In this document: piece by piece, positions 1 to 54,045 of the stretch
Numbering within the stretch: position 1 is the first letter of the stretch
Layout: each line of letters begins with the position of its first letter
DNA from: Candidatus Omnitrophota bacterium
GTDB taxonomy: Bacteria > Omnitrophota > Gorgyraeia > Gygaellales > Profunditerraquicolaceae
Assembly: GCA_043813255.1 (NCBI GenBank)
Contig: JBDRLG010000150.1
Span: 1-54,045 of the forward strand
Reading direction: 5' to 3'
Length of the DNA: 54,045 bases
Notes under the pieces: generated by a model
Database searches by the model: none
Told to the model about the DNA's origin: nothing
The model's input: only the letters and a program-made list of their open reading frames with translations
Position numbers and translations under genes: made by a program

Positions 1-140
1 ATTATGACAATTGTTATCGTCGGTAAAATGTTTTTGAGATGTCAATAGCGTGTCATTGCGAGGAACGAAGTGACGAAGCAATCTTCCGTCGTTAAGATTG
101 CTTCGCTCCGCTCGCAATGACACTAATTTGGACAGTAATG
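1..140. repeat. GTCATTGCGAG-family nested palindromic element at the window edge. An inverted copy lies at 53906..54045 and a direct copy at 47171..47300.
   Basis: The core hairpin is gtcattgcgag...gaagcaatct-N-agattgcttc...ctcgcaatgac (50..123). Its unique flank attatgacaattgttatcgtcggtaaaatgtttttgagat recurs, reverse-complemented, at the other window end. Confidence 0.85.
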
Positions 141-976: not shown

Positions 977-1032
977 GGTAGCCGCAGGCTTTAGCCTGCG
1001 TTTTATTACGCAAGCTGAAGCTTGCGGCTACC
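977..1032. repeat. REPIN-like doublet (GGTAGCCGC-hairpin, spacer, hairpin-GCGGCTACC)
   Basis: The sequence is ggtagccgcaggctttagcctgcg-ttttatta-cgcaagctgaagcttgcggctacc. It has a GTAG head and two inverted short hairpins. Confidence 0.8.
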
Positions 1033-2401: not shown

Positions 2402-2567
2402 CCTCTTCCCTTGGAGACTGTGCCAAATGAAGCTTTTAGGGCCATTTGTGTCATTGCGAGGAGTGAAACGACGAAGCAATCTCTACGAGGATTAAGATTG
2501 CTTCGCCCTTCGGGGCCCGCAATGACATTGAAAAAGGCCATTTGACCCAGTCTCACAAGGGGGAGGG
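2402..2567. repeat. ~170-bp four-level nested palindrome, GTCATTGCGAG family (copy 1 of 3 long copies)
   Basis: Four nested stems are visible: cccttggagactg/cagtctcacaaggg, ccaaatga/ccatttg, gtcattgcgag/cgcaatgac and gaagcaatct/agattgcttc. Homologous copies lie at 13644..13820 and 40156..40331. Confidence 0.85.
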
Positions 2568-2598
2568 AAGTAATCATATTACACAAGGGAGTTATTTA

Positions 2599-9255: not shown

Positions 9256-9546
9256 GTGCATATTCTTGATATGCGCGCGGTTTGCGGCTTTTGCGATTAT
9301 TTTTTAATTGCCAGCGGTACATCTTTAAGGCAGACAAACGCGGTCGCGCAAGCTATAGAAGATGAATTAGCCAAATTAAGAATAAAACTACGCTCCAAAG
9401 TCGCTTATAATGATGAATCAGGCTGGATCGTTCTTGATTATTTGAGTGTGGTGGCGCATATTTTCTATGAACCGGTGAGAGATTTTTATGATTTAGAGCG
9501 GCTATGGTCTGACGCGAAAAGAGTCAGGATTCCCAGAGAAGCATAA
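9256..9546 (+). CDS. rsfS: ribosome silencing factor RsfS (iojap family). The true start is probably upstream, at a non-canonical codon at 9187 or 9193.
   Basis: The motifs are DYFLIASGTSLRQTNAVAQAI, GWIVLDY, VVAHIF and ERLW. The in-frame upstream peptide LVLHIASIARSKKAQKVHILD matches the usual RsfS N-terminal helix. Confidence 0.85.
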   Translation: MHILDMRAVCGFCDYFLIASGTSLRQTNAVAQAIEDELAKLRIKLRSKVAYNDESGWIVLDYLSVVAHIFYEPVRDFYDLERLWSDAKRVRIPREA

Positions 9547-9600
9547 TAAGTGTAATGTTTCTTTCTATCAGTAGGTTTGGATAGTAGATGCGGCAAAATT

Positions 9601-9857
9601 GGTAGCCGCAAGCTTAAGCTTGCGTAAATAAACCCAAATTTTGCATTAGCAAAATTTGCCCGCCACGTCCCGTTGGGACTCCGCCGTTGGCGGGGTCCCT
9701 TGCGGGATAGGGCCGGCCGAAAAATCTCGACGAGATTTTTCGTGTTTGCCGGGGTAATCCCGAATTTAGTTTGCATTCTTTTAGTACAGATAATTCGACG
9801 ATATCGGATTTCTAATGCAAAATTTGGGATAAACGCAGGCTAAAGCCTGCGGCTACC
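9601..9857. repeat. REPIN-like doublet (inverted relative to 977..1032) whose loop is interrupted by a MITE
   Basis: The left arm is ggtagccgcaagcttaagcttgcgtaaataaa and the right arm is ataaacgcaggctaaagcctgcggctacc. With the insert removed, the sequence is nearly the reverse complement of 977..1032. Confidence 0.85.
9633..9828. mobile_element. MITE copy 1 (196 bp)
   Basis: It has perfect 17-bp TIRs, cccaaattttgcattag / ctaatgcaaaatttggg. It is flanked by a 5-bp direct duplication ATAAA (9628..9632 and 9829..9833), and the interior is a cluster of GC-rich hairpins. Confidence 0.85.
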
Positions 9858-9875
9858 ATCTTTTATTTTTATCGT

Positions 9876-11513
9876 ATGAAACAGCCAACAGAAAAATTAT
9901 TAATATCAATAATCAAAGATTCTTTAAAAGAGCTGGATTGGCAGCTGCCTGATAAAGAGCTTTATCTGGATTTGCCTCAGGATGCCCGTTTCGGAGACCT
10001 GGCGTCTAACGCCGCGTTAAAACTAACCAAGGTTCTTAAAAAATCCCCGCGGGAAATAGCTCAAAGTATTGTCCATACGCTTAGCAATCATCTTCAAAAT
10101 TGCCCTTTGAAAGGCTATGTTAAAGATATCAAGATTGAAGGCGCTGGTTTTATTAATTTTTATTTAAATGACAGCTATTTTCATCATGAACTTAAATCTT
10201 TGCTTTTAGAAGGCAAAGATTATTTACGGGCGGATTCCGGTAAAGGAAAAAAAGTTCTAATTGAATTCGTAAGAGCAAATCCTACAGGGCCTTTATCAGT
10301 AGCGCACGCGAGGCAGGCGGCAGTAGGGGATGCTTTAGCTAATATCTTAGCTTTTCTGGGGTTTGAGGTCCAAAAGGAATATTATTTAAATGATGAAGGC
10401 AATCAGATAAATATACTCGGCCGTTCAGTAGATTTAAGGCTTAAAGAATTATTAGGAGAAAGCATAGAATTTCCTGAAGACCATTATCAGGGCGATTATA
10501 TTTATGATATCGCCAGAGAGATAATGGATAAGAAACTGCAGGTTAAAGACCATGGGGAATTCGCGGGGGAGCATATTCTAAATATAATAAAGCAAGAGTT
10601 GAATGATTTTGGAGTAAGGTTTGATAATTGGTATAGCCAGAAGGCGTTAGGCAAAAGCGGGAAAGTAGAAAAGGCCTTGGATGATTTGAAGAAAAAAGGT
10701 TTTATATATGAACAGGATGGAGCTGTCTGGTTTAAGTCAACAGAACTAGGGGATGATAAAGACAGGGTAGTAATAAAAAGCGATAAAACATATACTTACC
10801 TGACTCCTGATATCGCTTATCATCAGGAAAAATACAACCGTGGATTTGACTGGTTGATAAATCTTTGGGGCCCTGACCATCATGGGTATATCAGCAGGCT
10901 AAAGGCGTCTGTTGCGGCTTTCGGCCATGACCCGCAGTCTTTGTCAATTATTATAGTCCAGCTTGCCACTATATTCAGGGAAGGTAATCCTGTTCAGATG
11001 TCCACACGAAAAGGGCAGTATATTACTCTTAGGGAAGTCCTTGAAGAAACCGGGCCTGACGCGGCGAGATTTTTCTTTTTGATGAGGCGCACTTCCAGCC
11101 ATCTGGATTTTGATCTGGATGTTGCCAAAAAACAAACAAAAGAAAATCCTGTCTATTATGTCCAGTACGCGCACGCAAGGATTTCAAGTATTTTAAACAG
11201 CTATGGAAGTAAAGTAGACGCGAGTTTAGCGGACCTTAGCGTATTAAAAGAAAAAGAAGAAATAGAATTAATGAAAAAGATTTGCCAGTTTTCTTATATA
11301 CTTACTATTTGTTTAGGCACGCAGGATCCTTATATGATAACTATTTATCTGCAGGAATTAGCTGAAGATTTTCATAAGTTTTATGATTTGCACCGTGTTT
11401 TAGGGCAGGATGAAAAAGTTACTACTGCCCGTATTGTGCTTTTAAAAGCGGCCCAGATTATTATTGCCGCTGGCCTTGATTTAATGGGTATATCAAAGCC
11501 TGAAAAGATGTAA
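9876..11513 (+). CDS. argS: arginine--tRNA ligase
   Basis: It is a full-length class I ArgS with ANPTGPLSVAHARQ in the HIGH region, QMSTRKG in the KMSK-like region, and a C-terminal anticodon-binding domain. Confidence 0.92.
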   Translation: MKQPTEKLLISIIKDSLKELDWQLPDKELYLDLPQDARFGDLASNAALKLTKVLKKSPREIAQSIVHTLSNHLQNCPLKGYVKDIKIEGAGFINFYLNDSYFHHELKSLLLEGKDYLRADSGKGKKVLIEFVRANPTGPLSVAHARQAAVGDALANILAFLGFEVQKEYYLNDEGNQINILGRSVDLRLKELLGESIEFPEDHYQGDYIYDIAREIMDKKLQVKDHGEFAGEHILNIIKQELNDFGVRFDNWYSQKALGKSGKVEKALDDLKKKGFIYEQDGAVWFKSTELGDDKDRVVIKSDKTYTYLTPDIAYHQEKYNRGFDWLINLWGPDHHGYISRLKASVAAFGHDPQSLSIIIVQLATIFREGNPVQMSTRKGQYITLREVLEETGPDAARFFFLMRRTSSHLDFDLDVAKKQTKENPVYYVQYAHARISSILNSYGSKVDASLADLSVLKEKEEIELMKKICQFSYILTICLGTQDPYMITIYLQELAEDFHKFYDLHRVLGQDEKVTTARIVLLKAAQIIIAAGLDLMGISKPEKM

Positions 11514-13643: not shown

Positions 13644-13820
13644 CCCTCCTTTTTGGAGACTGTGCCAAATGAAGCTTTTGGGAGTATTTGTGTCATTGCG
13701 GGGAGTGAAACGACGAAGCAATCTCTACGAGGGTTAAGATTGCTTCCTCTGCACCATACGGTGCAGGGTCGCAATGACACTGAAAAAAGGTCATTTGACC
13801 CGGTCTCACAAGGGGAGGGG
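13644..13820. repeat. ~175-bp nested palindrome, GTCATTGCGAG family (long copy 2)
   Basis: The architecture matches 2402..2567, but the right half carries the module ctgcaccatacggtgcagg where copy 1 has gcccttcggggc. Confidence 0.85.
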
Positions 13821-23929: not shown

Positions 23930-24604
23930 ATGCCAACTTACGCAAGAGTACATCAGCTTCGCTTATCTTTAATTTATCATATATATAGCAGGAGTAATGG
24001 CAAAATACCTATCTTTAAAAACAGGGATGATTTTATTTATTTTAGGAACCTTCTTAAAAGATATTCTTTAAGATTTGATTTAAAGATATATCATTGGGTA
24101 ATTATGACTAATCATTATCATCTTTTGCTTGAATTAGAAGAGCCGAAGCGAATATCAAAAATTATGGCGGGTTTATCTAAGGCGTATAGCTGTTATTATC
24201 ACAAGGTTTATTCTACTGTTGGATTTCTTTGGCAGGGTAGGTTTAAATTACAGCCGGTTCAGAAAGATAATTATTTAGTTGCCTGTGGTAGATACATAGA
24301 AAGAAATCCTGTGAGAGCCGGAATGGTTAATGAAGCATATGAATATTCCTATAGCAGTGCCAGATATTATTGTTTAGGCGAAAACGACGGTATTACGGTT
24401 GAAAATCCTGCATTCTTATCATTCGGCACAACTTTAGCCTATAGGCGTAATGTATATATAGAGTTCCTGCGTAAATTTGATGGTGAAGAAGAAAAATCAT
24501 TTAATAATCTTGAGTATCCTGTAGGAAATAAGGAATTCTTGAGGAGATTAGTTAGAGAAAATGGCCGTTTTACTTCCATGAGGAGAGGCAGGTTGAGAAA
24601 ATAA
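23930..24604 (+). CDS. REP-associated tyrosine transposase (RAYT)-like, IS200/Y1 HUH family
   Basis: The HUH motif is in VIMTNHYHLLLE, and the catalytic Tyr region is GRYIERNPVRAGMV. It is a single gene with no IS ends visible. Confidence 0.75.
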   Translation: MPTYARVHQLRLSLIYHIYSRSNGKIPIFKNRDDFIYFRNLLKRYSLRFDLKIYHWVIMTNHYHLLLELEEPKRISKIMAGLSKAYSCYYHKVYSTVGFLWQGRFKLQPVQKDNYLVACGRYIERNPVRAGMVNEAYEYSYSSARYYCLGENDGITVENPAFLSFGTTLAYRRNVYIEFLRKFDGEEEKSFNNLEYPVGNKEFLRRLVRENGRFTSMRRGRLRK

Positions 24605-26232: not shown

Positions 26233-26389
26233 TAAGATTGCTTCGTCAGGCTGCGCCCTCCCCGCAATCAGACTGTGTCACAATCTATATTTTAACGCGG
26301 TAGCCGCAACCTTTAGGTTGCGTTTCCGACGCTGATAAAACGCTCCGCTTACGGAGCGGCTACCGGAAATGCAATTACGACACAGTCTG
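26233..26389. repeat. composite repeat: a half GTCATTGCGAG unit, then the outer stem cagactgtgtc/gacacagtctg enclosing a REPIN doublet (26299..26364)
   Basis: Positions 26263..26364 recur as a 102-nt direct repeat at 47294..47395 with only 2 mismatches. Confidence 0.85.
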
Positions 26390-29949: not shown

Positions 29950-30210
29950 ATGAGTAAATTAAAATTAGATTTACATGATATTTATAATAGTTCAGATAAG
30001 ATTGAGAAAGAATTATTCAGAGTTATAGATGAGGCCGTTAAAAAAAGGATAGATATGGTAGAAATTATTCCCGGCAAGGGCAGCGGGCAGTTAAAGAAAG
30101 GAGTATTGAGGTTTCTTAACCGGCCGGATATAAAGAAGCTCTACCACCGTATGGATATTGATAATAAGAATTTCGGAAGGCTGTTTGTTCATTTTCGCCA
30201 TAATAGATAA
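29950..30210 (+). CDS. Smr domain protein with a divergent motif set
   Basis: It reads LDLHD where canonical Smr has LDLHG, and VEIIPGKGSGQLK where canonical Smr has IIHGKG.G.L. I start it at the ATG at 29950. Confidence 0.65.
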   Translation: MSKLKLDLHDIYNSSDKIEKELFRVIDEAVKKRIDMVEIIPGKGSGQLKKGVLRFLNRPDIKKLYHRMDIDNKNFGRLFVHFRHNR

Positions 30211-30211
30211 T

Positions 30212-30368
30212 CCCAAATTTTGCATTAGCAAAATTTGCCCGCCACGTCCCGTTGGGACTCCGCCGTTGGCGGGGTCCCTTGCGGGAAAGGGCCGGCCGAT
30301 TAAATCTGGATAGATTTAATCGTGCTCGTCGGGGTAATCCGGATAAGATTTTTAATGCAAAATGAGGG
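30212..30368. mobile_element. MITE copy 2 (157 bp)
   Basis: The left TIR is identical to copy 1 and the right TIR is degenerate (ttaatgcaaaatgaggg). It is flanked by a 5-bp duplication ATAAT (30207..30211 and 30369..30373), and the left duplicate contains the smr stop codon. Confidence 0.85.
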
Positions 30369-30399
30369 ATAATTATTATTGAACAATGGGAGCAGGGAA

Positions 30400-40155: not shown

Positions 40156-40353
40156 CCCTCGCCCCAACGAGGCTGTGCCAAATGAAGCTTTTGGGAGTAT
40201 TTGTGTCATTGCGAGGAGTGAAACGACGAAGCAATCTCGACGAGGATTAAGATTGCTTCCCCTGCACCATACGGTGCAGGGTCGTAATGACACTCAAAAA
40301 TGGCCATTTGACCCAGTCTCCAACGGGGAGAGCCTGCCTGCCGGTAGGCAGGA
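40156..40353. repeat. ~175-bp nested palindrome, GTCATTGCGAG family (long copy 3), plus a gcctgcctgccggtaggcagg unit
   Basis: It is collinear with 13644..13820. The outer stem is changed to ccccaacgaggctg/cagtctccaacgggg. Confidence 0.85.
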
Positions 40354-42799: not shown

Positions 42800-42894
42800 T
42801 TTTTGAATAACGTAAAGGGAAATTACTTTACAAATTCATAATTTATAGTAAAGTAGATTTTATATAGATAATTTTAAGCCGAGTGAGGATTATT

Positions 42895-43194
42895 ATGGTT
42901 AAGATAAATAAAATAGTAGAAACAATTCATGAGAATAATGAAGAAATACGAAATTATGGCGTGAAGAATATTGGTGTTTTTGGTTCGTTCGTAAGAGCGG
43001 CTCAAAGCAGAAAAAGCGATATTGATATACTTGTTGAGTTTAATAGGGGCGAGAAAGTATTTGATAATTATATGGATTTAAAATTTTATCTGGAGAAACT
43101 TTTCCGCCGTAGAGTAGATTTAGTAATCAAAGAAGCCATAAAGCCGAGAATAAAGCATCAGATACTTAAAGAGGTGATCTATGCGAGATTATAA
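42895..43194 (+). CDS. mntA: nucleotidyltransferase antitoxin MntA
   Basis: The motif GVFGSFVRAAQSRKSDIDILVEF is present. A GTG at 42883 is an alternative start. Confidence 0.8.
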   Translation: MVKINKIVETIHENNEEIRNYGVKNIGVFGSFVRAAQSRKSDIDILVEFNRGEKVFDNYMDLKFYLEKLFRRRVDLVIKEAIKPRIKHQILKEVIYARL

Positions 43195-43510
43195 GCTTTA
43201 TTTAGATGATATAGTGATAGCGATAAAGAAGATTGAAAAATATTCAAGGAATTTAAGCCTTCAGAGATTAAAAAAGGAAAGTTTGATTATTGACGGAATT
43301 GCTAGGAATTTAGAGATTATTGGAGAGGCAGCAAAGAATATACCTCATACTGTAAAAGAAAATTATCCTGATATCGAATGGAAAAAGATTGCGGGATTAA
43401 GAGATATTTTAGCCCATGAATATTTTGGTATAGATATAGATGTCCTTTGGGATATTGTTAAAAATAAACTGCCAGATTTGAAAAAGAAAGTTTATCATAT
43501 TTTAAGGTAA
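43181..43510 (+). CDS. hepT: HepT (DUF86) HEPN toxin
   Basis: It carries the RDILAHEYFGID (Rx4H) motif. It overlaps mntA by 14 nt. Confidence 0.8.
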   Translation: MRDYKLYLDDIVIAIKKIEKYSRNLSLQRLKKESLIIDGIARNLEIIGEAAKNIPHTVKENYPDIEWKKIAGLRDILAHEYFGIDIDVLWDIVKNKLPDLKKKVYHILR

Positions 43511-43564: not shown

Positions 43565-43879
43565 TTAATCAAGCGCCTGGGCGAATTTAATTGCTTTATT
43601 AATTTGTTCTATTTTTTCGGCTCTTAGAGAACAAATTCTTTTAGTAATGATTGCTTTTCTGATTGTGGTAATTGTATCTAAATTTATTACGTATTTATGA
43701 GGCAAACCGTCTTTTTCATCTAATTGTACTTCCACGGGAATATTACGTATAGTTGTGGTTATTTGAGCAATAGAAACTGCGTTACGCGCTTCATAGGCTT
43801 CATCCCGGGAAAGTAAAACTACCGGACGCCTGCCAATAGGCTCAGGTTGTTCTGCCCACCAGACTTCGCCCCGTTTCAT
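43565..43879 (-). CDS. mazF: MazF/PemK family endoribonuclease toxin
   Basis: The N-terminus reads MKRGEVWWAE...GRRPVVLLS, and the size is typical of the family. Confidence 0.8.
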   Translation of the reverse strand: MKRGEVWWAEQPEPIGRRPVVLLSRDEAYEARNAVSIAQITTTIRNIPVEVQLDEKDGLPHKYVINLDTITTIRKAIITKRICSLRAEKIEQINKAIKFAQALD

Positions 43880-45532: not shown

Positions 45533-45717
45533 ATTAATCTTCGGGGTGAGGTGAAAGTCCTGACCGGCGGTTGCGCAGAAAGCGCACACCGGCGTTTCTT
45601 TTTACGCCGGGTGTAAAGCCCGCGAGTTCCAGTATAACGCTGGGGCAGATCCGGTAAAATTCCGGAGCCGATGGTTGTGCCGATAGCGCAGAAAGTCCAG
45701 ATGAGAGGAGATTAAAA
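45533..45717 (+). promoter_or_regulatory. FMN riboswitch (RFN element)
   Basis: The conserved cores are present: cttcggggtgaggtgaaagtcctgaccggcggt, aagcccgcgag, gatccggtaaaattccggagccgatggt and agtccagatgagaggag. P1 pairs ttaatct with agattaa. Two peripheral loops are enlarged. Confidence 0.9.
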
Positions 45718-45814: not shown

Positions 45815-45954
45815 ATAATCCCGCTGCGTGTGATATTACAAAAATTTCTTCGATATTTTTGTAATACTTCGCGGGATAAATTCAGACAGATAATTTATGT
45901 TCGCTTTCTGCCTATCGGCAGGCGTTCCATAAATTATGTCTTCATTTATGTTCA
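45815..45954 (+). promoter_or_regulatory. conserved rib leader element, copy 1 (second copy at 50609..50733)
   Basis: It is about 85% identical by eye to copy 2 and extends into the start codon region. Hairpin 1 is atcccgc...attacaaaaat-ttcttcgat-atttttgtaat...gcgggat. Hairpin 2 is ataatttatg...cataaattat. Confidence 0.6.
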
Positions 45955-47144
45955 ATTCCATTCCAGAAATATTAGAGGATTTAAAAAAAGGCCGTATGGT
46001 TATCGTGGTTGATGATGAAGACCGTGAGAACGAAGGGGATTTGGTTATTGCCGCTTCTTTCGCTAAAGCGGAGAATATTAACTTTATGGCAAAATTCGGC
46101 CGCGGTTTAATATGCGTGCCTATGGAAGAAGGCCGGCTTAAACAGCTGGATTTACAGCCGATGATGCCTGAAAAGGCAAAGGATCCTTTTTCAACCGCGT
46201 GGATGGTTTCTGTAGACGCGGCCAAAGGTATTACCACGGGAATTTCCGCTTATGACCGCAGCCATACAATAGAGACGCTTATTAATCCGCAGAGCCGGCC
46301 GGAAGATTTGATTTCTCCCGGGCATCTATTTCCTCTTAAGGCTCGCAATGGCGGCGTGTTAGTCCGGGCAGGCCATACTGAAGCGGCAGTAGATATGATG
46401 AATCTATCAGGGCTTTATCCGGCAGGGGTTATTTGCGAGATTATGAATGAAGATGGCACAATGGCAAGGCTTCCCGAGTTAATAGAGTTTTCAAAAAAGC
46501 ATAAATTAAAAATTTGTTCTATTGAAGAACTGATAAAATACCGCAGGCGTTCAGAGAAATTAGTTGAAAGGTTATCAGAGACGATTTTGCCTTCTGAATA
46601 CGGGACATATAAACTTATAGTGTATCGCGATTTAACCAATGAGCAGGTTCATGTTGCTTTGGTTATGGGAGAAATACAAGGGCAGGATGTGCTTGTGCGC
46701 GTGCATTCTGAATGCCTTACTGGAGATGTCTTCGCGTCTTTACGCTGTGACTGCGGCAGGCAGTTGAAGAAAGCAATGCAGTTGATTGATAAAGAGAAAA
46801 AAGGAGTAGTGCTTTATATGAATCAGGAAGGCCGCGGTATAGGGCTGGCTGAAAAAATACGCGCTTACAGCTTGCAGGATAAAGGTATGGATACAGTGGA
46901 AGCAAATGAAGCTTTAGGCTATCAGCCTGATCTAAGAGATTATGGTATAGGCGCGCAGATTTTGTCTGACTTAGGGCTTAAAAATATCCGGCTTATGACT
47001 AATAACCCGCGTAAAATTGTCGGGCTGGAAGGGTATGGTTTAAAAGTTATAGAGAGAGTCTCTATAGAAATAGAACCTAATCCTGTAAATTATAATTATC
47101 TAAAAACAAAAAAAGAAAAATTAGGGCATCAGTTAAAAATATAA
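45948..47144 (+). CDS. ribBA: bifunctional 3,4-dihydroxy-2-butanone-4-phosphate synthase / GTP cyclohydrolase II
   Basis: The DHBP synthase motif is [13 protein letters not shown]. The GCH-II zinc site is [19 protein letters not shown] start it at the second ATG (45948, MFNSIPEI). The ATG at 45936 is an alternative. Confidence 0.92.
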
Positions 47145-47170: not shown

Positions 47171-47300
47171 ATTATGATAATTGTTATCGCCGGTAAAATG
47201 TTTTTGAGATGCCAATAGCGTGTCATTGCGAGGACCCCGACGTTACGTCGGGGGACGAAGCATCTTCCGTCGTTAAGATTGCTTCGCTTCGCTCGCAATC
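47171..47300. repeat. GTCATTGCGAG-family element, direct copy of the window-start element
   Basis: The sequence is attatgataattgttatcgccggtaaaatgtttttgagatgccaatagcgtgtcattgcgagg...gattgcttcgcttcgctcgcaat. It is fused to the cagactgtgtc module. Confidence 0.85.
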
Positions 47301-47395
47301 AGACTGTGTCACAATCTATATTTTAACGCGGTAGCCGCAACCTTTAGGTTGCGTTTTCGACGCTGGTAAAACGCTCCGCTTACGGAGCGGCTACC
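47294..47395. repeat. 102-nt direct repeat of 26263..26364, containing the REPIN doublet 47330..47395
   Basis: Only two mismatches separate the copies by eye (gtttcc/gttttc and ctgata/ctggta). Confidence 0.9.
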
Positions 47396-50608: not shown

Positions 50609-50733
50609 ATAATCCCGCTTTGTATGATATCACAAAAATTTCTTCGATATTTTTGTGATACTCCGCGGGATAAGTTCAGGCAATATAATTTATGTTCACT
50701 ATGTTTCATAAATTATGCCTTCACTTATGTTCA
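50609..50733 (+). promoter_or_regulatory. conserved rib leader element, copy 2
   Basis: It is collinear with 45815..45954. The hairpin stem is changed compensatorily (atcacaaaaat/atttttgtgat versus attacaaaaat/atttttgtaat). It lacks the 17-nt ctgcctatcggcagg insert. Confidence 0.6.
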
Positions 50734-51326: not shown

Positions 51327-51541
51327 GGTAGCCGCAGGCTTCAGCCTGCGTCGTTCAAGAGACTGTTGCGAAATACCTTAAATTCGTCATTCTGCGGCTC
51401 GCCTCGCGGCGAAGCCGAGGGCTTGACCGCAGAATCCATAAACATTTTATCGAAGATGATAGATCCTGCGCTTTCGCGCAGGATGACAAAAATGGAGTTT
51501 TGCAACAGACTCTCCAACGCAAGCTAAAGCTTGCGGCTACC
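51327..51541. repeat. REPIN-like doublet whose loop carries a nested palindromic insert
   Basis: The REPIN arms are ggtagccgcaggcttcagcctgcg and cgcaagctaaagcttgcggctacc. The inner stems are gagactgttgc/gcaacagactc and gtcattctgcgg.../...caggatgac. Confidence 0.85.
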
Positions 51542-53905: not shown

Positions 53906-54045
53906 CATTACTGTCCAAATTAGTGTCATTGCGAGCGAAGCGAAGCAATCTTATCGTCGAAGGATTGCTTCGTCACTTCGTTCCTCGCAATGACACGCTA
54001 ATAATATCTCAAAAACATTTTACCGACGATAGCAATTATCATAAT
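53906..54045. repeat. GTCATTGCGAG-family element at the window end, reverse complement of 1..140
   Basis: The sequence ttactgtccaaattagtgtcattgcgag...ctcgcaatgacacgctaataatatctcaaaaacattttaccgacgatagcaattatcataat is about 90% identical by eye to the reverse complement of the first 140 nt. Confidence 0.85.

What the first reader, a model, noticed from the sequence alone, without database searches (positions are those of the whole stretch)
9601..9857. MITE with perfect 17-bp TIRs and a 5-bp target-site duplication, caught inside the loop of a REPIN doublet
**The element.** Positions 9633..9828 begin with cccaaattttgcattag and end with its exact reverse complement. They are flanked by ATAAA on both sides (9628..9632 and 9829..9833).

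**The host site.** The host is a GGTAGCCGC...GCGGCTACC doublet. Its uninterrupted homolog at 977..1032 (in reverse orientation) carries a single ATAAA at the corresponding loop position. The filled and empty sites are therefore both in this window.

**Interpretation.** This is direct evidence of cut-and-paste-type insertion with a 5-bp TSD, and it orders the two repeat families in time (REPIN first, MITE second). No autonomous partner transposase lies in the window. A 5-bp TSD with a CC-initiated TIR is compatible with several DDE IS families, but I cannot tell which.
Basis: seen in the sequence. Interest (0 to 1): 0.65.

Follow-up and report, generated by a model that had tools for sequence, protein, structure and literature searches.

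The report
IS1380-type MITE inside a hairpin repeat
A 196-bp non-coding mobile element that borrows the transposase of an IS1380-family insertion sequence has inserted into the tip of a palindromic repeat between two housekeeping genes of an Omnitrophota bacterium; it is a real and clean example of a known kind of element, not a new kind.

Summary
Positions 9633..9828 carry perfect 17-bp terminal inverted repeats (CCCAAATTTTGCATTAG). They are flanked by ATAAA on both sides and sit in the apical loop of a GGTAGCCGC...GCGGCTACC hairpin doublet.

- **Second copy.** 30212..30368 lies outside any doublet and has its own 5-bp duplication (ATAAT).
- **Duplication.** Of 57 distinct two-ended copies (window plus public genomes and metagenomes), 41 have a perfect 5-bp duplication, against 8 expected. 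Other duplication lengths give about none. The target consensus is W-T-N-A-A.
- **Partner.** Elements of 1412-1439 bp with the same ends and the same 5-bp duplication encode one 436-438-aa IS1380-family transposase (NCBIfam NF033539, 272-274 bits, cut-off 180). A 77%-identical copy with near-identical ends lies in a Candidatus Omnitrophica MAG.
- **Window.** It has no DDE transposase. The host is Omnitrophota by its ArgS relatives.
- **Related genome.** One with 92% identical ArgS has a 71-nt rsfS-argS spacer with neither doublet nor MITE.
- **Corrections.** The "empty site" at 977..1032 is a paralogue (53/56 identical), not the same locus. The REPIN label is plausible but unproven; a RAYT-like gene at 23930..24604 scores below cut-off and is not flanked by doublets.

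Ordinary biology, well resolved.

The parts
9633..9828 (+). MITE copy A (196 bp), a non-autonomous IS1380-type element
   Evidence: Perfect 17-bp TIRs; no credible ORF; shares 97% of its first 96 nt with copy B (D4).
9633..9649 (+). Left terminal inverted repeat CCCAAATTTTGCATTAG
   Evidence: Identical to the IRL of the autonomous IS1380 elements in L079, L141 and L117.
9812..9828 (-). Right terminal inverted repeat, the exact reverse complement of the left one
9628..9632 (.). Left copy of the 5-bp target-site duplication, ATAAA
   Evidence: Fits the family target consensus W-T-N-A-A.
9829..9833 (.). Right copy of the 5-bp target-site duplication, ATAAA
9658..9717 (+). GC-rich extended hairpin inside the MITE. 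It occupies the loop of the GCCC...GGGC stem of the 111-112-bp core family and is specific to the window's subfamily.
   Evidence: Folds; alignment. The 25-mer is absent from the 150 loci held when one search was run.
9718..9742 (+). Internal hairpin 2 of the MITE, kept by compensatory changes between copies
   Evidence: 8 of 19 pairs show double changes across 10 copies.
9750..9762 (+). Small conserved palindrome CGGGGTAATCCCG
9601..9627 (+). Left arm of the host hairpin doublet (GGTAGCCGCAAGCTTAAGCTTGCG) plus the start of its loop
9834..9857 (+). Right arm of the host hairpin doublet (CGCAGGCTAAAGCCTGCGGCTACC)
977..1032 (-). Paralogous uninterrupted doublet (56 nt), 53/56 identical to the reconstructed pre-insertion site
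30212..30368 (+). MITE copy B (157 bp). Its right TIR has 3 mismatches. It lies directly after the stop codon of an Smr-domain gene and is not in a doublet.
30207..30211 (.). Left target-site duplication of copy B, ATAAT
30369..30373 (.). Right target-site duplication of copy B, ATAAT

Best explanation
Positions 9633..9828 are a miniature inverted-repeat transposable element (MITE) of the IS1380 family. It has no transposase of its own.

**Proposed mechanism**
- A DDE transposase encoded by a full-length IS1380-family element with the same ends binds the two 17-bp terminal repeats. That element lies elsewhere in the genome or community.
- The transposase joins the element to a staggered 5-bp cut at a W-T-N-A-A target.
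- Repair of the stagger leaves the 5-bp direct duplication.

**This locus**
The target was the ATAAA in the 6-nt AT-rich apical loop of an existing palindromic doublet between rsfS and argS. The doublet was therefore there first.

**Shown**
- The ends and the duplications.
- Multiple copies.
- A partner with the same ends and the same duplication length.
- No partner in the window.
- An orthologous spacer that lacks the insert.

**Inferred**
- That the partner transposase actually mobilises this MITE.
- The chemistry: cut-and-paste versus a copy-out route.
- That the loop was hit because it matches the target consensus, rather than because it is a hairpin.
For: **Anatomy**
- Perfect 17-bp TIRs and ATAAA/ATAAA flanks.
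- A second copy with ATAAT/ATAAT outside any doublet.

**Duplication statistics**
- There are 57 distinct two-ended copies: 2 in the window and 55 in public genomes and metagenomes.
- 41 have a perfect 5-bp duplication and 10 more differ at one base.
- Randomly paired flanks give a mean of 8.1 and a maximum of 18.
- Duplication lengths of 2-4 and 6-8 bp give 0-2 matches.
- The right flank, which the search pattern did not constrain, gives T/A, T, N, A, A.

**Partner**
- L079 is 1439 bp with ATGAA/ATGAA. L141 is 1438 bp and L117 is 1412 bp.
- All three start with the exact 17-mer and hold one 436-438-aa ORF.
- The L079 and L117 ORFs score 272-274 bits on NCBIfam NF033539 'IS1380 family transposase' (cut-off 180) and hit Pfam PF13701. 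The L141 ORF is 76% identical to L079's.
- The ends are kept although the L079 and L117 transposases are only 49% identical.

**Same phylum**
- P0008 is 77% identical and is named IS1380 family transposase [Candidatus Omnitrophica bacterium].
- Its element has perfect ends CCCGGATTTTGCAATAG and a TTTAA left flank. That end variant is also the second end of family-1 MITEs.
- The window's ArgS has only Omnitrophota/Omnitrophica named relatives.

**Negative control and orthologous site**
- Nine exact 17-mer hits in viral contigs have no second end and no A/T-rich flank, and run on into non-repeat sequence. Chance hits therefore look different.
- A relative with 92% identical ArgS has a 71-nt rsfS-argS spacer with no doublet and no MITE. 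The window's 329-nt spacer is 72 nt plus the 257-nt doublet, MITE and duplication.
Against: - No autonomous IS1380 copy was found in the window.
- The L079-type IS is not present at 80% identity or more in the groundwater runs that hold this genome; only a diverged relative appears in one biofilm run. A partner in the same genome is therefore not demonstrated.
- No orthologous empty site of the same strain was seen. The contigs that 'skip' the MITE match only 24-28 nt of doublet arm and are paralogues.
- Mobility has not been tested.
- The interior of the MITE shows no similarity to the partner IS beyond about 22 nt at the ends, so its origin is unknown.
- The internal hairpins are kept by compensatory changes. 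A purely parasitic element does not obviously need this.
Confidence: 0.9

Rival explanations
1. The element is a structured non-coding RNA gene or a cis-regulatory RNA. On this view the 'TIRs' are its closing stem, and the flanking ATAAA repeats are chance in AT-rich DNA.
For: The element folds far better than shuffles (z = -8.3 and -7.6). Its internal hairpin keeps pairing through double changes in 8 of 19 pairs. It sits 48 nt upstream of argS.
Against: - There is no Rfam match, even at E up to 10.
- The same 17-bp ends enclose at least five unrelated interiors and also a transposase gene.
- The 5-bp duplication recurs in 41 of 57 copies with different 5-mers.
- The two window copies sit in unrelated contexts.
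- The promoter and terminator scan finds no more sites than in shuffled sequence.
Confidence: 0.04
2. The MITE belongs to another DDE family that also makes 5-bp duplications, such as Tn3, IS2-type IS3, IS1634 or IS701. The IS1380 elements would then share the end sequence only by coincidence.
For: A 5-bp duplication is not unique to IS1380. No partner is present in the window.
Against: - Three independent full-length elements with the exact 17-mer at one end, a related second end and a 5-bp duplication encode only an IS1380-family transposase.
- Scores for IS1634, IS4 and IS701 models are far below their cut-offs.
- Ends that start with CC and a 4-5-bp duplication are the stated hallmarks of IS1380 (ISfinder family table, from my own knowledge).
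Confidence: 0.03
3. The whole 257-nt block 9601..9857 is one composite repeat unit, a long variant of the doublet that spreads as a unit, rather than a later insertion into a doublet.
For: Two of seven doublets in the window have long loops (9601..9857 and 51327..51541). The related genome lacks the doublet and the MITE together.
Against: - Copy B and 55 other copies are not in doublets.
- Removing the MITE and one ATAAA restores exactly the 56-nt unit seen at 977..1032.
- The insert in the other doublet is unrelated in sequence.
Confidence: 0.03

Closest known systems
IS1380 family insertion sequences (ISEcp1, ISPme1, IS1247, IS942)
   Same: - The partner elements have one DDE transposase ORF that passes the NCBIfam IS1380 model.
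- Their ends start with CC and they make a 5-bp duplication.
- One well-kept end and a looser second end match the known tolerance of ISEcp1 and ISPme1 for surrogate ends (PMC9330008).
   Different: - The window holds only a 196-bp and a 157-bp non-coding derivative.
- The partner ISs are 1.41-1.44 kb, slightly shorter than the 1.55-2 kb I recall for the family.
- The target is a fairly strict W-T-N-A-A.
Bacterial MITEs (Correia/NEMIS of Neisseria, RUP of Streptococcus pneumoniae, Nezha of cyanobacteria, MaeMITEs of Microcystis)
   Same: They are short, non-coding, TIR-bounded and multi-copy, lie between genes, fold strongly, carry a target-site duplication, and are moved in trans by an IS of the same end type.
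   Different: - The partner family is different. Correia duplicates TA, and RUP depends on IS630.
- I found no open-access paper that describes MITEs of IS1380 type or this end sequence.
- The same end serves at least five unrelated interiors, in MAGs labelled as five phyla.
piggyBac superfamily (eukaryotic)
   Same: - IS1380 is treated as the prokaryotic relative of piggyBac (PMC10813416).
- Both have ends that begin CCC...GGG.
- Both use a short, AT-only, palindrome-like target: TTAA for piggyBac and T-T-N-A-A here.
   Different: - The duplication is 5 bp, not 4 bp.
- The outer target positions tolerate A/T swaps.
- Seamless excision, the hallmark of piggyBac, is untested here.
- The resemblance of ends and target is an observation, not a test of shared mechanism.
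REP-targeting insertion sequences (IS1397, ISKpn1 and ISPpu9/10, which insert in REP/BIME loops)
   Same: A mobile element sits in the loop of a repeated extragenic palindrome. A second doublet in the window (51327..51541) also carries an insert in its loop.
   Different: There is no sign of obligatory targeting. Only 1 of 57 copies lies in such a doublet. The AT-rich loop simply contains a consensus target.
REPIN / RAYT systems
   Same: - The host doublet is two inverted near-identical palindromic units that pair into one long hairpin.
- It has seven copies in 54 kb, all intergenic, with no flanking duplication.
- A Y1/HUH gene lies in the same window.
   Different: - The Y1 gene scores 67.1 bits, below the 80-bit cut-off of the REP-associated tyrosine transposase model.
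- It is not flanked by the doublet sequence.
- The link between this gene and these doublets is therefore unproven.

Membership tests
MITE (non-autonomous DNA transposon) | Short (under about 600 bp) with no transposase gene | tested here: met
   The copies are 196 and 157 bp. Only spurious 56- and 96-aa ORFs overlap copy A. tblastn with the partner transposase finds nothing.
MITE (non-autonomous DNA transposon) | Terminal inverted repeats | tested here: met
   17/17 in copy A and 14/17 in copy B.
MITE (non-autonomous DNA transposon) | Target-site duplication of fixed length, with different sequences at different copies | tested here: met
   ATAAA and ATAAT in the window. 41 of 57 copies are perfect at 5 bp, against 8.1 expected; other lengths give about 0.
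MITE (non-autonomous DNA transposon) | Several dispersed copies | tested here: met
   Two copies in the window. At least one further flank is seen in the source metagenomes (loose ends). Dozens of related copies occur in public data.
MITE (non-autonomous DNA transposon) | Ends shared with an autonomous element that encodes a transposase | tested here: met
   L079, L141, L117 and L151.
MITE (non-autonomous DNA transposon) | Mobilised in trans by that transposase | not testable with these tools
   This needs a mobilisation assay or polymorphic sites in population data. No orthologous empty allele was found in the four runs.
IS1380 family (for the partner element) | Transposase passes the curated family model | tested here: met
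   NF033539 scores 272.1 and 273.9 bits against a cut-off of 180; PF13701 scores 160-168 bits.
IS1380 family (for the partner element) | Single ORF filling an element of about 1.5-2 kb | tested here: met
   One 436-438-aa ORF in 1412-1439 bp. This is slightly below the size range I recall from ISfinder.
IS1380 family (for the partner element) | Inverted repeats of about 15 bp that begin with CC, and a 4-5-bp duplication | tested here: met
   Ends CCCAAATTTTGCATTAG and CCCGGATTTTGCGTTAG; ATGAA/ATGAA in L079. The defining values are from my own knowledge of ISfinder.
REPIN (for the host doublet) | Two REP-like palindromic units in inverted orientation that form a long hairpin | tested here: met
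   25-nt arms, 6-nt loop, -40.2 kcal/mol.
REPIN (for the host doublet) | Many intergenic copies in the genome | tested here: met
   Seven doublets in 54 kb (17 seed matches against 5.1 expected), all between ORFs. The rest of the genome was not available.
REPIN (for the host doublet) | A cognate RAYT gene, typically flanked by the same REP sequence | tested here: inconclusive
   The gene at 23930..24604 has PF01797 at 51.8 bits, an HUH-like HYH motif and a YIERNPVRAG motif. It scores 67.1 bits on NF047646, below the 80-bit cut-off, and no doublet lies within about 1.7 kb.

The most novel reading that the evidence does not exclude
**The reading**
One clade of IS1380 transposases keeps the same 17-bp end down to 49% protein identity and across MAGs labelled as five phyla. 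It inserts at a palindrome-like T-T-N-A-A site, as piggyBac does at TTAA. It supports a whole set of unrelated MITE families.

**The family in this window**
It also carries an internal stem-loop module kept by compensatory changes. That module may have a function of its own, for example as a DNA hairpin that helps mobilisation or as an RNA element co-opted by the host.

**Consequence if true**
This clade would be a tractable bacterial model for piggyBac-type target choice and excision.
Probability: 0.2. Interest if true: 0.55.

Novelty: new member of a known kind. Interest (0 to 1): 0.33.

Why it matters
**For this genome**
The finding explains a 257-nt expansion of the rsfS-argS spacer. It also shows that this Omnitrophota genome is layered with nested small repeats, which matters for MAG assembly and for annotating intergenic 'structured' sequence.

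**More generally**
- It ties a widespread, previously unnamed end sequence (CCCAAATTTTGCATTAG) to the IS1380 family.
- It gives that clade a target consensus, W-T-N-A-A.
- It shows that IS1380, best known for moving resistance genes through ISEcp1, also supports MITEs in uncultured phyla.

It does not change any concept.

Tried and rejected
- **Rfam.** The gathering and permissive thresholds gave nothing for the element.
- **BLAST against PLSDB plasmids.** No match.
- **Literature search.** No paper holds the 17-mer, IS1380-derived MITEs, or Omnitrophota together with IS1380.
- **Viral contig scan.** It returned only chance hits, which served as a negative control.
- **Apparent cargo-carrying elements.** L134 (1727 bp, AMMECR1 plus Memo genes) and L148 (2100 bp) have the same ends. 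They proved to be ordinary genes lying between two separate small MITEs, so I rejected them.
- **Exact-protein look-ups.** ArgS, RsfS and the Smr protein of the window are not on record.
- **Search for an empty allele in sequencing runs.** The contigs that skip the MITE match only the doublet arms and are paralogues.
- **Laying an IS copy on the runs.** The L079 IS is not in the groundwater runs at 80% identity or more.
- **Hairpin-loop preference.** Only 2 of 57 copies clearly sit in a hairpin loop (window copy A and L023), so I did not pursue it.
- **The ATAA flank as part of the element.** I rejected this because the flanks are direct rather than inverted and differ between copies.

Full report
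**1. The observation**

Reading 9481..9960 confirms every coordinate in the finding.
- CCCAAATTTTGCATTAG lies at 9633..9649 and its exact reverse complement at 9812..9828.
- ATAAA lies at 9628..9632 and at 9829..9833.
- GGTAGCCGC lies at 9601..9609 and GCGGCTACC at 9849..9857.

The uninterrupted doublet at 977..1032 is as described. The 17-mer has 4 matches in the window at up to 3 mismatches, against 0.56 expected; no shuffle reached 4.

It lies at 30212..30368, is 157 bp long, and its right repeat has 3 mismatches. It is flanked by ATAAT on both sides at 30207..30211 and 30369..30373. It lies directly after the stop codon of an Smr-domain gene and is not in a doublet.

The two copies are 97% identical over their first 96 nt. 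They then differ by substitutions in a hairpin and by a 40-nt indel.

**2. The host site**

Removing the element and one ATAAA gives a 56-nt sequence. It is 53/56 identical to the reverse complement of 977..1032. Both fold as a single long hairpin with a 6-nt AT-rich loop (-40.2 kcal/mol), so the insert sits exactly in the apical loop.

The two loops read AATAAA and ATAAAA. 977..1032 is another member of the repeat family, so it is a paralogous 'empty site', not the empty allele of this locus.

The window holds seven such doublets.

**3. An orthologous comparison**

The named relatives of the window's ArgS are all Candidatus Omnitrophota or Omnitrophica, at 66-69% identity. The host is therefore an Omnitrophota bacterium. 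The runs that hold the sequence are groundwater and biofilm metagenomes.

Two much closer ArgS proteins, 92% and 90% identical, lie on short contigs.
- In L155 the end of rsfS (SDAKRIRIPRSI*) is followed by a 71-nt spacer and then argS. It has no doublet and no MITE.
- The window's spacer is 329 nt. That is 72 nt plus the 257-nt block of doublet, MITE and duplication.
- L154 also has no doublet arm in the 58 nt before argS.

The spacer sequences have diverged. This shows that the insert is absent in relatives; it is not a base-perfect empty site.

**4. Relatives of the element**

A scan of one genome per species, using the 17-mer plus four partly specified bases, gave 23 loci.
- About 20 are short TIR-bounded elements.
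- They come from MAGs labelled Omnitrophota (three MAGs, one with six loci), Bacteroidota, Actinomycetota, Chlorobiota and Alphaproteobacteria.
- Nearly all are preceded by TTAA, TAAA, TCAA or TGAA.

A metagenome scan gave 118 more loci. Nine exact hits in viral contigs have neither a second end nor such flanks, and they run on into non-repeat sequence. They show what chance hits look like.

**5. The duplication is real and 5 bp long**

I chose the second end without looking at the flanks. This gave 57 distinct two-ended copies.
- 41 have a perfect 5-bp duplication and 10 more have one mismatch.
- Random pairing of left and right flanks gives a mean of 8.1 and a maximum of 18.
- For lengths of 2, 3, 4, 6, 7 and 8 bp the counts are 1, 0, 2, 0, 0 and 0.

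The duplicated 5-mers are TTAAA, TTTAA, ATAAA, TTCAA, ATTAA, ATGAA, TTGAA, TTTAT and ATAAT.

The search pattern did not constrain the right flank, and its five positions are as follows.

| Position | Base counts |
|---|---|
| 1 | T 41, A 15 |
| 2 | T 55 |
| 3 | any base |
| 4 | A 54 |
| 5 | A 50 |

The consensus is therefore W-T-N-A-A, close to the palindrome TTNAA. The ATAAA in the doublet loop fits it. That is enough to explain why the loop was hit. Only this one copy of the 57 lies in a GGTAGCCGC doublet, and one other (L023) lies in an unrelated hairpin loop.

**6. The partner**

Three metagenome loci carry longer elements with the exact 17-mer at one end and a related second end.

| Locus | Length | Duplication | ORF |
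|---|---|---|---|
| L079 | 1439 bp | ATGAA/ATGAA | 436 aa |
| L141 | 1438 bp | TTTAA/TTAAA | 436 aa |
| L117 | 1412 bp | TTAAA/TTAAT | 438 aa |

- Each holds one ORF that nearly fills it.
- The L079 and L117 ORFs score 272.1 and 273.9 bits on NCBIfam NF033539, 'IS1380 family transposase' (cut-off 180).
- The same two score 160-168 bits on Pfam PF13701. The IS4, IS1634 and IS701 models are far below their cut-offs.
- The L141 ORF is 76% identical to L079's. The L079 and L117 proteins are only 49% identical, yet both elements keep the 17-mer.
- More than 4000 homologues exist at E ≤ 1e-30, mostly on 1.4-2-kb contigs. That is typical of multi-copy IS in assemblies.

One homologue, P0008, is 77% identical and is named IS1380 family transposase [Candidatus Omnitrophica bacterium]. 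In its MAG contig the element has perfect ends CCCGGATTTTGCAATAG...CTATTGCAAAATCCGGG and a TTTAA left flank. That end variant is also the second end of several MITEs of the window's family.

The window itself has no IS1380 gene (tblastn). A Pfam scan of all ORFs finds no DDE transposase of any kind.

**7. Many MITE families share one end**

The 57 copies fall into at least five groups with unrelated interiors, 87 to 352 bp long.

The window's copies belong to a group found mainly in Omnitrophota MAGs. Its 111-112-bp core has this order:
- the left repeat;
- CAAAATTTG, which can pair back onto the repeat;
- a GCCC-loop-GGGC stem;
- a hairpin;
- the palindrome GGGGTAATCCC;
- the right repeat.

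The window's subfamily has an extra GC-rich hairpin in the first loop (9658..9717). That hairpin occurs in none of the 150 loci held when one search was run.

Across ten copies the hairpin keeps pairing through changes on both sides in 8 of 19 pairs. This may reflect selection for structure, or it may reflect the way palindromes mutate. I cannot tell which. No Rfam family matches, and the promoter and terminator scans are at background level.

IS1380 members such as ISEcp1 and ISPme1 are known to accept loosely similar second ends (PMC9330008). That fits one well-kept end and a looser one here. IS1380 is treated as the prokaryotic relative of piggyBac (PMC10813416). The CCC...GGG ends and the TTNAA-like target echo piggyBac's CCC...GGG and TTAA, but this is a resemblance, not a test.

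**8. The doublets**

In shape they are REPIN-like: two inverted palindromic units forming one hairpin, intergenic, multi-copy, with no flanking duplication.

The window contains a 224-aa Y1/HUH gene at 23930..24604.
- It hits Pfam PF01797 at 51.8 bits.
- Its best NCBIfam hit is 'REP-associated tyrosine transposase', but at 67.1 bits, under the 80-bit cut-off.
- It is not flanked by doublets.

The label is therefore plausible but unproven.

**9. Verdict**

The open question, which family, now has an answer: IS1380.

What remains inferred:
- that the transposase moves this MITE in this organism;
- the transposition chemistry;
- any function of the internal hairpins.

This is a new member of a known kind. 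It is a clean example, with some added interest from the breadth of the shared end and the target consensus.

Noticed in passing
window 23930..24604 (+): A 224-aa Y1/HUH transposase-like gene with a HYH motif and YIERNPVRAG. It hits PF01797 at 51.8 bits. Its best NCBIfam hit is 'REP-associated tyrosine transposase' at 67.1 bits, below the 80-bit cut-off. It is not flanked by the GGTAGCCGC doublets. It is a possible RAYT for the doublet family.
   Followed up: partly
window 51327..51541: A second GGTAGCCGC doublet whose loop holds a different insert of about 165 bp. The insert has imperfect inverted ends GAGACTGTTGCGAAA / TTTGCAACAGACTC and flanks TTCAA / TCCAA. Part of it is 84% identical to L111 2968..3027. 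Two of seven doublets in the window therefore carry an insert in the loop.
   Followed up: partly
window 2414..2575, 13656..13817, 40169..40330: Three copies of a repeat of about 160 nt with GAGACTGTGCCAAATG-type inverted ends. Each contains a nested palindrome GTGTCATTGCGAGG...CGCAATGACAC. That palindrome also occurs at 50..124, 47219..47305 and 53922..54010, and in the Omnitrophota MAG locus L018. Nested small repeats are common in this genome.
   Followed up: no
window 45815..45888 and 50609..50682: Two copies (89% identical) of a 74-nt palindromic repeat, ATAATCCCGC...GCGGGATAA, on either side of the riboflavin genes. The flanks are part of the repeat, so they are not a duplication.
   Followed up: no
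window 26250..26364 and 47281..47395: A 115-nt repeat (93% identical) that includes a 66-nt doublet variant with a longer loop and about 50 nt of shared upstream sequence. Some doublets therefore spread as part of a larger unit.
   Followed up: no
window 45533..45716 (+): An FMN riboswitch (Rfam RF00050, 82.9 bits) upstream of ribBA (45936..47144). ribH, nusB, ribD and a lumazine-binding gene follow, with doublets lying between them.
   Followed up: no
L016 3734..3907 and L003 6561 onward (Omnitrophota MAG JAZDOX01); L065 2527..2878: MITEs of the same family are themselves interrupted by other small palindromic elements. One example is CCCTGCTAAATTCGCAG...CAGGG inside the hairpin of L016. The nesting goes several layers deep.
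   Followed up: no
window 42883..43510 (+) and 43565..43879 (-): A nucleotidyltransferase/HepT pair and a MazF/PemK-like toxin gene, which are toxin-antitoxin-type modules. Nearly all other genes of the window are on the + strand.
   Followed up: no
loose ends at window 9628 in runs X2 and X3: Contigs from the source metagenomes join the MITE's left end to other flanks. One is copy B's flank. Another (…CCTAAATAAAAT) is not in the window, so the genome or population holds at least a third copy of this subfamily.
   Followed up: partly
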